A DNA stretch of 42,241 bases from a virus (lineage: Duplodnaviria > Caudoviricetes): positions 1 to 42,241 of the IMG/VR virus record IMGVR_UViG_3300016649_000263. One strand, written 5' to 3'. How positions within the stretch are numbered: position 1 is the stretch's first letter; every line of letters starts with the position of its first letter. The notes beneath the pieces were generated by a model. The model was not told where the DNA came from. It saw nothing but the letters and a program-made list of their open reading frames with translations, and searched no databases. Below are positions 15,311 to 37,573 of the stretch, piece after piece. The translations under genes were made by a program, and so were the position numbers.

Positions 15311-15438
15311 TGAAAGACTACATGATGTTCTGGTTCTCACAGTTGCTGGTTAGCCTAGGTTTCTCTGTGGGGTTATTTTTGCTGATATTCGTTATCGCCA
15401 TAATTCGATATGTTTTGGACGAAAGGAAAAAGAAATAA
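15310..15438 (+). CDS. 42-aa single-pass membrane protein (MKDYMMFWFSQLLVSLGFSVGLFLLIFVIAIIRYVLDERKKK); not in the ORF track
   Basis: TGATG and TAATG overlaps with both neighbours; hydrophobic helix with basic tail. Confidence 0.65.
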   Translation: MKDYMMFWFSQLLVSLGFSVGLFLLIFVIAIIRYVLDERKKK

Positions 15439-18309: not shown

Positions 18310-18666
18310 TTACTGTTCGCTTAACTTCTGCTTCAGCAAGTAACCTTCCAGTAACCAGATTTTCTGCACGGCATTATCACGCGCAATCTTACGACCGATC
18401 TCCGCGTCAAAGTTCTCCGGGCTGGCGCAGGCTGATTCGCCGGTAACAGTGAAGCCGTTTTTCAGAACCAGAACACAGATGGTTAACAGATTCAGCGCAG
18501 GACTAACAGGGTCAGCCATTTCAGGAACAGGCCAGCCAGCACGCAAAGACGCACCAGCATTGATAAAGTGGCATTCAGAAATCACAGACTCAATGTGTTC
18601 TGGAGTAATGCGCGGTGCCGTTTTGCCTTTGGCCTGAATTTCCAACTCGATATCTTTGTCGCTCAT
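18310..18666 (-). CDS. N4 Gp49/Sf6 gp66 family protein (recalled as the family of the anti-CBASS sponge Acb4)
   Basis: APRIT...IES.I...LTICVLVLKNGFTVTGESACASPENFDAEIGRKIA..NA..KIW.LEGYLL signature; GAGGT RBS. Confidence 0.8.
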   Translation of the reverse strand: MSDKDIELEIQAKGKTAPRITPEHIESVISECHFINAGASLRAGWPVPEMADPVSPALNLLTICVLVLKNGFTVTGESACASPENFDAEIGRKIARDNAVQKIWLLEGYLLKQKLSEQ

Positions 18667-18683
18667 GGGTATACCTCGAGGTT

Positions 18684-18709
18684 AAAAAAATGCCCCCGGC
18701 GAAGGAGGC
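18684..18709 (-). terminator. Intrinsic terminator ending the RprA-seed sRNA
   Basis: GCCTCC-TTCGCC-GGGGGC-A-T7 on the minus strand. Confidence 0.75.
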
Positions 18710-18760
18710 GAAAGACTACACACAGCAATGGGATGTATCACGGTCACAGGTATTACCGGC
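18684..18760 (-). ncRNA. Putative Hfq-type sRNA carrying an RprA-like seed (5' end approximate)
   Basis: ATTGCTGTGTGTAGTCTTT (18729-18711) directly before a terminator, as in the 3' half of enterobacterial RprA. Confidence 0.6.
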
Positions 18761-19321
18761 TGAGCACTGTGGGCACCGGTGCCATCCCATACGGTGCTTA
18801 TTGGCTACTTCAATGCTCATGCGGTAACACGCTGGTTTACGTCCAGCAACGCTGAGTTCGGTGATCCGGTTCCAGTACCGGACTGCTCCAGATTTTAAAC
18901 CTTTGCAGGAAACAGGCACTGCCTGCGTTTATAAACAAACACCCATTAGTGAAACGGACTGTTGTGGTGTCCGGTGCTGATCTCCGGCTTCCGACTGTCC
19001 TGACCTTGTTCAGAGCCTGAGCCGTGGTCGTCACGCTCGTTTCCGGCTGGAAGCAATGCCGGTATGGGTGCTGGTCAGTTATTGCGCATCAGCCTGCGCA
19101 TTCACCACAACGGAAAGAGCACTGCATTTGACCACCTACGGCGCTTGCCAGTTGCATCGGTTCTCCGTCCTCATAACTAACGGTACTGGAGCAACTCGGG
19201 AGCATTCCGCATATCCGGTGCAATACTCTTACCTGTTGAGTGCCGGTTACGCTCCGGCGTCGTTTTTACGACCGTTCTTTTCACTGTGGTTTCATACCAA
19301 CTACCAATCATGATGACTCAA
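18750..19321 (-). ncRNA. Tandem structured ncRNA modules (putative processed polycistronic RNA)
   Basis: Abutting closing stems 19236-19321, 19112-19233, 18961-19111 and 18750-18830; irregular pairs are G-U on the minus strand; no credible CDS. Confidence 0.6.
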
Positions 19322-19324
19322 TAG

Positions 19325-19361
19325 TTACCATAAAGGTAACTGTACATCTAATAATTGTCAA
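19325..19361 (-). promoter_or_regulatory. Sigma70 promoter of the antisense cassette, -10 overlapped by an operator
   Basis: -35 TTGACA (19361-19356), 17 bp, -10 TACCTT (19338-19333); TTACC-ATAAA-GGTAA at 19325-19339. Confidence 0.7.
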
Positions 19362-34781: not shown

Positions 34782-35420
34782 ATGCGGATATTTTTGTTAC
34801 TTTTAATAATTTTCTCCTTTAACTCTACCGCTGCCTCATGTGCTTTGTCTAAGGGGGTTGGATTTCATGTACCAATGGATAGCAAAGGAACTCTATGCCT
34901 CAATAACTCCAATTATGGTGAGGAGTTAGCCAAGTCTAAGGGATATGAATTAACAAGTTTTACGCTTCTATCAAAGGATGTAATTTTCTTTTCCGCTGGA
35001 AATGGTATTGATTCTTATATCTTCATGGGCACTCCGGTAGGAATCGGCATGCAGGTAAGAGAGTCTCCATCGGATGATGTAGAGAAGAACATCACAGGCA
35101 TTAATTCAGTTACTTATAATAAGTTTACTAATGAAGTTTTCTTCTTAACTGACGCATGGGCCACATCAGCAGCGGTTCATAAATTTGACATTGGACCGAT
35201 CAGTGAAGAAAAGAAAGTGACACCAGTATTTGTTACTAGTGGAAATTCTATTTCAGTTGTAAATAGTGGGAAATACGTTGGAAATATTATTGTTGAGAAG
35301 CATAAATATAAAGATGGTGGCGGTTCATACGACCCTTATGTACTTGTAACGCCTGATGGAAAAACAATTAAAGAGCTGGGTGAAGATCAGTCTTCGGTTA
35401 GCAATGCACTACTAAAATAG
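34782..35420 (+). CDS. Exported protein of unknown function (moron-like)
   Basis: Signal peptide MRIFLLLLIIFSFNSTAA; AT-rich; own RBS and terminator. Confidence 0.7.
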   Translation: MRIFLLLLIIFSFNSTAASCALSKGVGFHVPMDSKGTLCLNNSNYGEELAKSKGYELTSFTLLSKDVIFFSAGNGIDSYIFMGTPVGIGMQVRESPSDDVEKNITGINSVTYNKFTNEVFFLTDAWATSAAVHKFDIGPISEEKKVTPVFVTSGNSISVVNSGKYVGNIIVEKHKYKDGGGSYDPYVLVTPDGKTIKELGEDQSSVSNALLK

Positions 35421-35440
35421 CCCCATCCTTGGGGCTTTTT
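35419..35440. terminator. Probably bidirectional terminator between convergent genes
   Basis: AGCCCCA-TCCT-TGGGGCT with T run on the right and A run on the left. Confidence 0.75.
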
Positions 35441-35442
35441 CA

Positions 35443-35604
35443 TTAACGAATCCCTTTACCACCTTCGCGGGAATCCTCTGATCGTCCGCCACAAATTGAC
35501 CCATCTGATGCGGTGTCACTATCATGCTGGCAGTTACCTGCAAAAGCCTGTACAGATGTGCCGAGAGAAAGAGTAACCAGAAGCATTGCGAATAATTTTT
35601 TCAT
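35443..35604 (-). CDS. Small secreted two-Cys peptide (53 aa)
   Basis: MKKLFAMLLVTLSLGTSVQAFA signal peptide; mature GNCQHDSDTASDGSICGGRS...; ATG 35604. Confidence 0.75.
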   Translation of the reverse strand: MKKLFAMLLVTLSLGTSVQAFAGNCQHDSDTASDGSICGGRSEDSREGGKGIR

Positions 35605-35711
35605 GTAATACCTGTGTGTAGTTAAGGCCACAAATGTGGCCCATCAAAAGTATTATCTTAAGTTAAATTTTACCAGTGAATAATTGGATTTTGTGGCCAT
35701 ACCCCAGACAC

Positions 35712-35735
35712 AAAAAAGCCCGCATCGCGGGCTTT
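35712..35735 (-). terminator. Intrinsic terminator
   Basis: AAAGCCCGC-GAT-GCGGGC followed by TTTTTT on the minus strand. Confidence 0.8.
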
Positions 35736-36539: not shown

Positions 36540-37289
36540 TTACTGAATCTTCGTAGCCTGCTGGATGTACGCCGCATGGGTAGCGATGTCCAACAATAAC
36601 TTCTGCTGCTGCGCCAGCATGTATCGCACGATCTCCAGTTCACGATGCGCACCTGACACGTCATGGCCGTTCTCCGCCAGCTCGCGGAGCAGGGCATGCA
36701 ACTGCGTCTTTCCTTTATCTGACAGAACCGCTGGCAGGAATTCCGCCGGGCCGACGTTCTCGTTGCTGTAGTGATACTGGTTCTGCACAGCCTTCATGAT
36801 CATCGGCACACACTCGTCGGCAATGCGCTGCGCTGCTTTGCTGGTGGTGGCAGTTTTACCCCGGCGGCCGTCGCGGATGGTCATGGTGCTGGCGTTAGAT
36901 GTGCCGACCAGATCGGCGAGAACTTCCGGCTGGCGCTGTGAGTATTGCCCAGTCTGGCGGATGGCCGGCAGCACTTCGCTGGTAACCCATTTGCGGAAAC
37001 GATAGGGGATAGTGCCAGGTGTCACCGCATCGCGGCAGCGCAGGATCAGGGTGTAGAGGCCAGACTCGGAAATAACCTGTACGTTAGGGTTGCCACGATT
37101 ACCGTCGGTTAAACCGACAGTATTTTTTTCGTCGTCATCCAGTTTCAAAAGCGCATCGCGGTTATTGCTAATGCCAATGGCATTGCACACATCAGCGGCT
37201 ACAAACCATGGTGAATTGTTAATCTGAATGGTACGGATTTTGGCCGTGGATTCAAAGCTGAATGAGGTAGTGCAAGTTTGCGTTTTCAT
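36540..37289 (-). CDS. BRO-N domain antirepressor with Ant-like C-terminus
   Basis: PWFVAADVC.A..I.N.RDAL..LDDDEK...ISESGLY.LI.R...F.KWVT.EVLP.IR.TG.Y; true start ATG 37289 with AGGAG RBS. Confidence 0.85.
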   Translation of the reverse strand: MKTQTCTTSFSFESTAKIRTIQINNSPWFVAADVCNAIGISNNRDALLKLDDDEKNTVGLTDGNRGNPNVQVISESGLYTLILRCRDAVTPGTIPYRFRKWVTSEVLPAIRQTGQYSQRQPEVLADLVGTSNASTMTIRDGRRGKTATTSKAAQRIADECVPMIMKAVQNQYHYSNENVGPAEFLPAVLSDKGKTQLHALLRELAENGHDVSGAHRELEIVRYMLAQQQKLLLDIATHAAYIQQATKIQ

Positions 37290-37340
37290 GGTGAATCTCC
37301 TGTAATTTTTGGAGTCACCACCTGAGGTTCCAATCTCGCT

Positions 37341-37420
37341 GGTGGTGAGCTGAACAGGGTTGGAACTACCGGGATACAGGAAACCGGCCAGCCCGAAGGC
37401 TGCCCCGCCCAGCCCACCAT
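37341..37420 (-). ncRNA. C4-type antisense RNA (P1 c4/P4 CI family)
   Basis: ATGGTGGGCTGGGCGGGGCAGCCTTCGGGCTGGCCGG...GGTAGTTCCAACCCTGTTCAGCTCACCACC cloverleaf; GTTCCAA complementary to TTGGAAC upstream (37490-37498) and downstream (37326-37334); TCCTGTA complementary to TACAGGA at the BRO gene RBS. Confidence 0.85.
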
Positions 37421-37558
37421 TGAGATGTAGCTGTGCCGCACAAATAAAAAACACGCTGATGCGCGTGTATGTGCGCCCATATCTTTCGGGGTTCCAATCC
37501 CGGCACCAGATTTTGCTGGTGCATAACCACTATGGCGCATTATTTGCGGTGTGTAAAC

Positions 37559-37573
37559 TTACCAAAAAGGTAA
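37559..37573. promoter_or_regulatory. Operator upstream of the C4/BRO unit
   Basis: TTACC-AAAAA-GGTAA. Confidence 0.75.

What the first reader, a model, noticed from the sequence alone, without database searches (positions are those of the whole stretch)
35605..35622. Trans target inside the prophage: two perfect complements between the cassette sRNA and the RBS of a secreted-peptide gene 17 kb away
Seen: the mRNA leader of 35443-35604 (minus) is ACUACACACAGGUAUUAC-AUG (-18 to -1). The cassette RNA (minus) has GUAAUACCUGUG (18756-18745), perfectly complementary to CACAGGUAUUAC (-12 to -1). Twenty nt further it has CUGUGUGUAGU (18725-18715, within the RprA seed), perfectly complementary to ACUACACACAG (-18 to -8). 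Two overlapping 12- and 11-nt matches to one initiation region, both inside a ~45-nt RNA segment, look unlikely by chance. Most of the 12-mer lies in the 3' strand of stem E and would be freed by processing. Inference: the peptide gene (no full operator directly upstream) is expressed in the lysogen and silenced by the sRNA on induction, analogous to P22 sas/sieB or a trans-acting type I TA. Host RprA could also repress it.
Basis: partly seen in the sequence, partly recalled or inferred. Interest (0 to 1): 0.8.

Follow-up and report, generated by a model that had tools for sequence, protein, structure and literature searches.

The report
Phage RprA mimic and its target
This prophage carries an exact copy of the 3' pairing segment of the host stress RNA RprA, and one of its own small secreted-peptide genes has a conserved matching site at its ribosome-binding region, so the gene is likely silenced by host RprA and, after induction, likely also by the phage's copy, a module found in hundreds of other phage sequences.

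Summary
Both complements are real. The 11-nt seed match is beyond chance: 0 of 1,204 background leaders have even 10 nt, and it is the seed's best match in the window. The site is kept, in shifting registers, in 19 of 23 distinct leaders of the peptide family; the numerous E. coli-type leaders lack it.

The two elements are not a dedicated pair. About 370 viral stretches carry the same seed, 112 of 119 read with a terminator-like hairpin. None of 50 seed-bearing phages encodes the peptide, and most peptide-bearing phages lack an intact seed. Host rprA has the identical seed. The leader is therefore most likely a host RprA site that the phage's operator-controlled mimic would also hit on induction.

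The 12-nt match is rare by chance (about 1e-4 to 1e-3). However, it is half buried in stem E, adds little predicted binding energy, occurs in one narrow lineage and shows no covariation. No expression or pairing data were found. Peptide function is untested; its place between ejection and tailspike genes suggests superinfection exclusion.

The parts
35443..35604 (-). 53-aa gene: signal-peptide-like N-terminus plus about 31-aa mature part with two invariant cysteines (PHROG 14503); lies between the ejection-protein genes and the tailspike gene
   Evidence: cleavage site inferred from sequence
35612..35622 (-). Seed-binding site ACUACACACAG (-18..-8), predicted partly unpaired, just 5' of a structured ribosome-binding site
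35605..35616 (-). Site complementary to the 12-mer (-12..-1); mostly the 5' strand of a predicted hairpin with early codons, conserved in 8 aligned leaders, no compensatory change
35625..35642 (-). Short hairpin near the putative 5' end of the peptide mRNA, present in most homologues
35652..35680 (-). Putative peptide promoter (TTCACT-17-GATAAT), no phage operator; weak support (2 found, 0.8 expected)
35715..35735 (-). Terminator-like hairpin insulating the peptide gene from the upstream operator-bearing gene; a second terminator-like hairpin at 35419-35436 follows the gene
18711..18729 (-). RprA 3' seed copy AUUGCUGUGUGUAGUCUUU, identical to host rprA
18684..18709 (-). Intrinsic terminator-like hairpin and U run closing the putative sRNA
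18735..18741 (-). GUGAUAC, 3' arm of a hairpin found in 18 of 19 related cassettes; pairs -7..-1 of the leader (one G-U) in the best predicted duplex, without opening stem E
18745..18756 (-). 12-mer GUAAUACCUGUG; 7 nt in the base of stem E; found only in this narrow lineage
18750..18830 (-). Stem E, a long imperfect stem; similar stems recur in related cassettes; RNase III processing is inferred, not shown
19325..19361 (-). Putative cassette promoter (TTGACA-17-TACCTT, read by eye; the scan did not list it) with a TTACC-N5-GGTAA palindrome over the -10; 10 perfect copies in the window, including sites flanking the repressor gene
18310..18666 (-). Phage_gp49_66 family gene behind the terminator; replaced by another gene in two close relatives

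Best explanation
The peptide gene's leader carries a conserved site complementary to the 3' seed of the host sRNA RprA, so host RprA likely represses its translation, and the prophage's own copy of that seed would likely do the same once the prophage is induced. Steps. (1) Shown: the cassette ends in the exact RprA 3' seed plus a terminator-like hairpin, and the leader is its best complement in the window. (2) Shown: the site is conserved across enterobacterial homologues whose hosts carry rprA, whether or not the phage has a seed module. (3) Inferred: the peptide mRNA is made in the lysogen from its own operator-free promoter, while the cassette is held off by the phage repressor and switched on at induction or infection. 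(4) Predicted: pairing at -18..-8, extendable to -1 by GUGAUAC, covers the single-stranded entry site and half of the Shine-Dalgarno sequence and blocks initiation, probably with Hfq. (5) Inferred: the phage module is a general RprA mimic aimed mainly at host mRNAs, and the peptide is one target among several. The 12-mer is a by-product of stem E rather than a required arm. (6) Least supported: the peptide is a periplasmic superinfection-exclusion factor that the phage turns off when it goes lytic.
For: Seed match: 0 of 1,204 background leaders at 10 nt or more. 19 of 23 distinct homologue leaders rank in the top 2% by helix energy, in different registers: Pectobacterium 12 nt perfect at -27..-16, L535 12 bp, Pantoea 10 bp shifted 3', Enterobacter/L141/L175 13 bp with G-U pairs. 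Host rprA with the identical seed was found in the genomes that carry these genes. The complete Rouxiella prophage G004 keeps the perfect 11-nt site with no phage seed module found. Shuffling the seed weakens predicted binding from -17.6 to -7.3 kcal/mol, while shuffling the 12-mer leaves it at -17.7; shuffling both extensions costs 0.8-2 kcal/mol. Opening the 12-mer in stem E costs 10 kcal/mol versus 4 for the seed. Modules travel without the peptide. The operator palindrome occurs 10 times perfectly and overlaps the cassette -10. The peptide lies between ejection and tailspike genes in all 20 epsilon15-like records listed.
Against: No RNA evidence for either transcript or for pairing. The E. 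coli-type leader, 52 of the 80 loci, has lost the site, as have L536 and L537 although their hosts have rprA. In a full co-folding test with accessibility the rank is less extreme (3 to 16 of 301). Most tolerated changes in the site are C-to-U and A-to-G transitions, which are common anyway. C/A-rich stretches before Shine-Dalgarno sequences can be translation enhancers (recalled). The validated RprA pairings I could read (rpoS C42, narP nt 31-69, hdeD) use mainly the central region, not this 3' segment. The 12-mer's rarity is not explained away.
Confidence: 0.55

Rival explanations
1. Dedicated phage circuit: in this lineage the captured RprA copy gained a second, selected 12-nt arm against the peptide RBS, so the phage RNA shuts the gene off more strongly or specifically than host RprA after processing frees the arm.
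For: 12-nt perfect match, expected 9e-5 to 1.2e-3, reached by 0 of 1,204 leaders. All 4 records with the 12-mer cassette carry the matching leader. In run X4 the seed has a 7-nt deletion while the 12-mer and an 18-nt leader are unchanged (different contigs, linkage not shown). The only leader with a change inside -12..-1 is in G004, which lacks the 12-mer cassette.
Against: The four records are near-identical phages (terminase large subunit 96-98% and portal about 95% identical where present): one event, no covariation. The same -12..-1 sequence is intact in lambdoid phages without the 12-mer. The arm pairs in stem E and is dispensable in predicted binding. It resembles the neighbouring conserved GUGAUAC arm, so it may be a local repeat. 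No cognate advantage in other clades.
Confidence: 0.2
2. Coincidence with a translation signal: the C/A-rich stretch is a conserved ribosome entry site or enhancer for a structured RBS, and complementarity to RprA and to the phage module is incidental.
For: The site is single-stranded next to a hairpin-buried Shine-Dalgarno sequence. It was lost in three lineages whose hosts keep rprA or are E. coli-type. Modules and peptide segregate independently.
Against: 0 of 1,204 real leaders reach 10 nt, while three separate clades of the family reach 10-12 nt in different registers. Gains at one end accompany losses at the other (Pectobacterium, L535, Pantoea).
Confidence: 0.17
3. Same pairing, other outcome: seed binding opens the RBS hairpin and activates translation (as for ricI), or the short stable mRNA acts as a decoy that soaks up RprA.
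For: The window RBS is predicted to be buried in a hairpin whose first pairs overlap the seed site. Several homologue promoters have a C before the -10 hexamer, a sigma-S feature (recalled), as in the RprA-RpoS-ricI loop described in PMC13501541 (passages).
Against: The site covers part of the Shine-Dalgarno sequence, and five base pairs of the hairpin persist after seed binding. In the Pectobacterium mRNA both site and RBS are unpaired, leaving nothing to open.
Confidence: 0.08

Closest known systems
RprA sRNA (Rfam RF00034) and its processed 3' form
   Same: Identical 19-nt 3' segment followed by a terminator hairpin; the same segment would pair with the leader.
   Different: Phage-borne, at the end of a 600-nt cassette with a phage operator. 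It scores 34.6 bits against a cut-off of 70; the central rpoS-pairing region is not conserved.
StxS of Shiga-toxin phages (PMC7547250, passages)
   Same: Phage sRNA cut from a longer transcript, copying a host sRNA's targeting and also repressing a phage gene's RBS in trans.
   Different: StxS comes from the late promoter, is made in lysogeny and uses the rpoS site, which RprA pairs with through its central region (C42). Here the copied part is the 3' seed and the promoter carries a repressor operator.
DicF of Qin-like prophages (PMC5069750 passages; processing reference title seen)
   Same: [quoted passage not shown] One module (L030) is a bona fide DicF with the RprA seed at its 5' end.
   Different: The window RNA has no DicF match and its predicted target is a phage gene, not ftsZ.
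RprA-RpoS-ricI loop on Salmonella plasmid pSLT (review passages PMC13501541; primary paper not held)
   Same: Host RprA controlling a small horizontally acquired gene at its 5' UTR.
   Different: ricI is activated; here repression is predicted, and the mobile element encodes its own seed copy.
P22 sas/sieB, P22 sieA and type I toxin-antitoxin pairs (all recalled, not tested by a call)
   Same: Small envelope protein with RNA control; position after the ejection genes resembles sieA.
   Different: The RNA is 17 kb away, not cis-antisense, and is not co-inherited with the gene. No sequence family link was found in Pfam, NCBIfam or PHROGs.

Membership tests
RprA (RF00034) | Covariance-model score at or above 70 bits over the full length | tested here: not met
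   34.6 bits, E 0.048; host genes score 76-113
RprA (RF00034) | Invariant 3' segment AUUGCUGUGUGUAGUCUUU followed by an intrinsic terminator | tested here: met
RprA (RF00034) | Hfq binding and RNase E processing to a 3' form of about 47 nt | not testable with these tools
   No RNA run holds the cassette
Target of an RprA-type seed | Complementarity at the initiation region beyond background | tested here: met
   0 of 1,204 leaders at 10 nt or more; 11 here
Target of an RprA-type seed | Conservation of pairing among homologues | tested here: met
   19 of 23 distinct leaders in the top 2%; lost in E. coli-type, L536, L537 and the Alcaligenes phage
Target of an RprA-type seed | Regulation lost and restored by compensatory mutations | not testable with these tools
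   needs a reporter experiment
Type I toxin-antitoxin pair (trans variant) | RNA and protein gene co-inherited | tested here: not met
   0 of 50 and 0 of 13 module carriers have the peptide; 3 of 50 peptide carriers have the seed, as in the control
Type I toxin-antitoxin pair (trans variant) | RNA present while the element is quiescent | tested here: inconclusive
   An operator over the cassette -10 argues for the opposite timing; expression not measured
Type I toxin-antitoxin pair (trans variant) | Peptide toxic to the host cell | not testable with these tools
   Sequence looks like a cleavable signal peptide plus hydrophilic two-cysteine domain
P22 sas/sieB-type control | Antisense RNA encoded in cis, overlapping the exclusion gene (recalled) | tested here: not met
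   The RNA lies 16.9 kb away
StxS | Product of the late promoter-terminator unit pairing with the rpoS activation site | tested here: not met
   Cassette lies between terminase and portal genes on the opposite strand and copies the 3', not the central, RprA region
DicF (RF00039) | Model match at or above 48 bits | tested here: not met
   No DicF hit in the window; met only by L030 among 12 phage modules scanned

The most novel reading that the evidence does not exclude
Phages have repeatedly captured the 3' half of the host's rprA gene as a plug-in small RNA, in hundreds of temperate and some lytic phage sequences. In this epsilon15-like phage the captured RNA has gained extra arms that cover the whole initiation region of the phage's own lysogeny peptide, a superinfection-exclusion factor, switching it off at induction while host RprA switches it off under envelope stress.
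Probability: 0.25. Interest if true: 0.8.

Novelty: new variant of a known kind. Interest (0 to 1): 0.6.

Why it matters
If true, it supplies a clean, testable target for the most conserved segment of RprA, and it shows that phages carry working copies of a core host stress sRNA. About 370 viral stretches hold the exact 18-nt seed. Matches also occur in Erwinia and Dickeya jumbo phages and Erwinia phage Ea9-2. I found no paper describing phage-borne RprA seed copies in nine searches of the held open-access library; subscription papers and most supplements were not searched. It would also tie a prophage envelope peptide to the Rcs/Cpx stress response and to the lysis-lysogeny switch through one RNA site. 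The narrower claim of a private two-site phage pair is weaker.

Tried and rejected
- Covariation by eye between other cassettes and their own leaders (G027, G031, BUCT711, E. coli type) looked tempting but failed the cross-pair test: cognate ranks were 127-455 of 602.
- Raw duplex energies against loosely called ORFs were confounded by G+C content and were replaced.
- A metagenome scan for the cassette found 0.
- No RNA holder was listed for the cassette; this is no evidence either way.
- The Klebsiella RIL-seq table (PMC10907235, file 4, places 2-31 of 36) lists RprA partners by locus tag; I could not map these and do not know whether that strain has the gene.
- Peptide structure: pLDDT 62, pTM 0.28, so no fold search was run. 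Pfam and NCBIfam gave nothing for the peptide, and 50 of 53 relatives had no Pfam family. Atlas neighbours are unnamed clusters.
- The idea that the site is lost where hosts lack rprA was rejected.
- The idea that the module is StxS-like in its seed was rejected.
- Papenfort 2015 and the PreS paper were not held.
- Earlier scan notes: nothing relevant.

Full report
Context. The window is a 42-kb epsilon15/phiV10-like temperate phage: integrase, RecET, repressor, terminase, podovirus-type tail, ejection proteins, antirepressor with C4 and IsrK RNAs, tailspike and lysis genes. The nearest named carrier of the peptide gene with this leader is Rouxiella aceris (90% identity), so the host is probably a relative; this is an inference.

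The observation. Both complements are exactly as described. The RNA segment is the end of a minus-strand non-coding cassette between the terminase and portal genes. It holds the 19-nt 3' segment of RprA followed by a terminator-like hairpin. The full RprA model scores only 34.6 bits against a cut-off of 70, so this is a partial copy, not an rprA gene.

Chance. I built 1,204 background leaders (563 from 800 kb of two host genomes, 641 from 15 phage records; starts chosen by a heuristic, so noisy). None has a perfect complement of 10 nt or more to the seed. The window leader has 11 and the best energy after target opening, and it is the longest seed complement on either strand of the window. For the 12-mer, none of the 1,204 reaches 12 nt and one reaches 11; the analytic expectation is 9e-5 within 45 nt of the seed and 1.2e-3 in the whole cassette. 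A full co-folding test on 301 of these leaders gives milder ranks of 3 to 16.

The seed module is common and travels alone. The exact 18-mer occurs in about 370 IMG/VR stretches (estimate; the scan stopped after 22 of 64 parts). Of 119 matches read, 112 are followed by a hairpin and T run and none has a host-rprA-like upstream context by my pattern. One is a DicF allele with the seed in front. None of 50 long seed-bearing contigs, picked from the 119, encodes the peptide; the same profile found it. A lambdoid version of the module was found in 33 of 38 pattern hits. Six contigs also carry the leader, and 0 of 13 other long carriers encode the peptide. Conversely, among 50 peptide-bearing contigs of other leader types, 3 have the seed at up to one mismatch, the same as the reversed control. 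Their cassettes have drifted seeds in the same slot, and cognate module-leader pairs rank 127-455 of 602, no better than non-cognate ones. Only the window clade ranks high (2-39 of 602).

The site in the leader is old and conserved. Of 23 distinct leaders that I chose to represent the family, 19 rank in the top 2% of background by helix energy. Registers differ: Pectobacterium has a perfect 12-mer at -27..-16, L535 12 bp, Pantoea 10 bp shifted towards the start codon, and Klebsiella/Enterobacter types 10-13 bp with G-U pairs. On the gene tree the window clade, the Pectobacterium/L535 pair and the Franconibacter/Enterobacter trio are separately supported groups. The hosts carry rprA with the identical seed. 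The complete Rouxiella prophage G004 keeps the perfect 11-mer with no phage module found. Against this, the E. coli-type leader (52 of 80 loci), L536, L537 and the Alcaligenes phage lack the site, and the hosts of L536 and L537 do have rprA.

The 12-mer. This variant cassette was found in 2 other IMG/VR contigs and one genome-bin contig, all close relatives and all with the matching leader; four further runs cover it unchanged. The same -12..-1 sequence is intact in lambdoid phages that lack the 12-mer, so the leader does not depend on it. Seven of its bases close stem E, and opening it costs 10 kcal/mol versus 4 for the seed. The best predicted duplex covers all 18 nt without it, using the seed plus GUGAUAC at 18741-18735; that segment is an arm of a hairpin motif present in 18 of 19 related cassettes. 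Shuffling the 12-mer leaves binding unchanged, shuffling both extensions costs 0.8-2 kcal/mol, and shuffling the seed costs 4.5-10. Two observations favour a role: run X4 has a broken seed but an intact 12-mer and leader (linkage not shown), and the one leader altered inside -12..-1 is in a phage without the 12-mer. I leave it unresolved at about one in five.

Timing. TTACC-N5-GGTAA occurs perfectly 10 times, including on both sides of the repressor gene (30 matches at up to two mismatches against 10.7 expected). One copy covers the cassette's putative -10; none lies within 150 nt of the peptide start in 19 records. The peptide gene is flanked by terminator-like hairpins and has a weak promoter match. 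That the palindrome is the repressor operator, and hence that the cassette is lytic and the peptide lysogenic, is inference.

Mechanism. [quoted passage not shown] This structure is conserved in 8 aligned leaders, with 0 of 20 pairs showing a compensatory change. Seed binding would take the open stretch and part of the Shine-Dalgarno sequence, so repression is predicted. The peptide has a signal-peptide-like start and two invariant cysteines. The same small domain occurs in longer proteins (219 representatives at E up to 0.001), and the function is unknown to Pfam and NCBIfam. It sits between ejection and tailspike genes in all 20 epsilon15-like records listed, and right behind the pilot-protein gene in an Alcaligenes phage. 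This is the slot of P22 sieA (recalled), which makes superinfection exclusion my best guess; it is untested.

Relation to known systems. It works most like StxS and DicF (phage RNAs cut from longer transcripts that use host machinery) and like RprA acting on the plasmid gene ricI. It fails membership of RprA, DicF, StxS, cis-antisense sas/sieB and type I TA on the features I could test. Papers seen as passages only: PMC7547250, PMC5069750, PMC9262595, PMC5861431, PMC10907235 (supplement rows 96, 100), PMC13501541, PMC6202311 and PMC7311995. Nine searches showed no report of phage-borne RprA seed copies in titles and abstract starts. Unseen supplements of interactome papers could hold the pairing.

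Verdict. It is most likely a host RprA site that a widespread phage mimic also reads (0.55), rather than a private two-site pair (0.2), a coincidence (0.17) or activation/decoy (0.08). Interest 0.6; new variant of a known kind.

Noticed in passing
L003-L121; window 18684-18729: The RprA 3' seed plus a terminator-like hairpin is a widespread phage module with many different upstream contexts (about 370 stretches estimated; 112 of 119 read have the hairpin). Its host targets are unknown.
   Followed up: partly
H83-H115; L094, L102: Seed matches also lie in Erwinia and Dickeya jumbo phages and in Erwinia phages of about 75 kb such as Ea9-2, mostly in unannotated gaps; these are probably lytic phages.
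   Followed up: no
L030:1463-1514 (-): A DicF allele above Rfam cut-off with the RprA seed at its 5' end: a possible two-seed hybrid sRNA.
   Followed up: partly
window 18680-19360; G026, G027, G033 and others: The terminase-portal gap of epsilon15-like phages holds an operator-controlled, mosaic non-coding cassette of long stems, a conserved GACCGTGAT hairpin, a variable seed slot and DicF-like terminators. Pieces recur in 249 GenBank phage records, with no Rfam family.
   Followed up: partly
window 9236, 9310, 10038, 13022, 13040, 16173, 19325, 36439, 37559, 38017: Ten perfect TTACC-N5-GGTAA palindromes, the likely repressor operators; 8-12 copies in the near-complete related records.
   Followed up: partly
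window 37286-37540 and 36540-37454 (-): IsrK and C4 RNAs overlap an Ash-family ORF upstream of a Bro-N antirepressor, with an operator at 37559.
   Followed up: no
L762 versus window 18730-18740: rprA of one genome in the Rouxiella genus set shares ATACATCCCA just upstream of the seed with the window module, hinting at capture from such a host; a single example.
   Followed up: no
L538-L553: A chromosomal family of about 100-aa secreted proteins in enterobacteria shares the two-cysteine motif of the peptide.
   Followed up: no
window 15313-15322 (+): Second-best seed complement in the window (10 nt), in the gap about 125 nt upstream of the gene at 15438.
   Followed up: no
run X4 on window 18718-18736: A close relative has a 7-nt deletion in the seed with the rest of the cassette end intact.
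   Followed up: no
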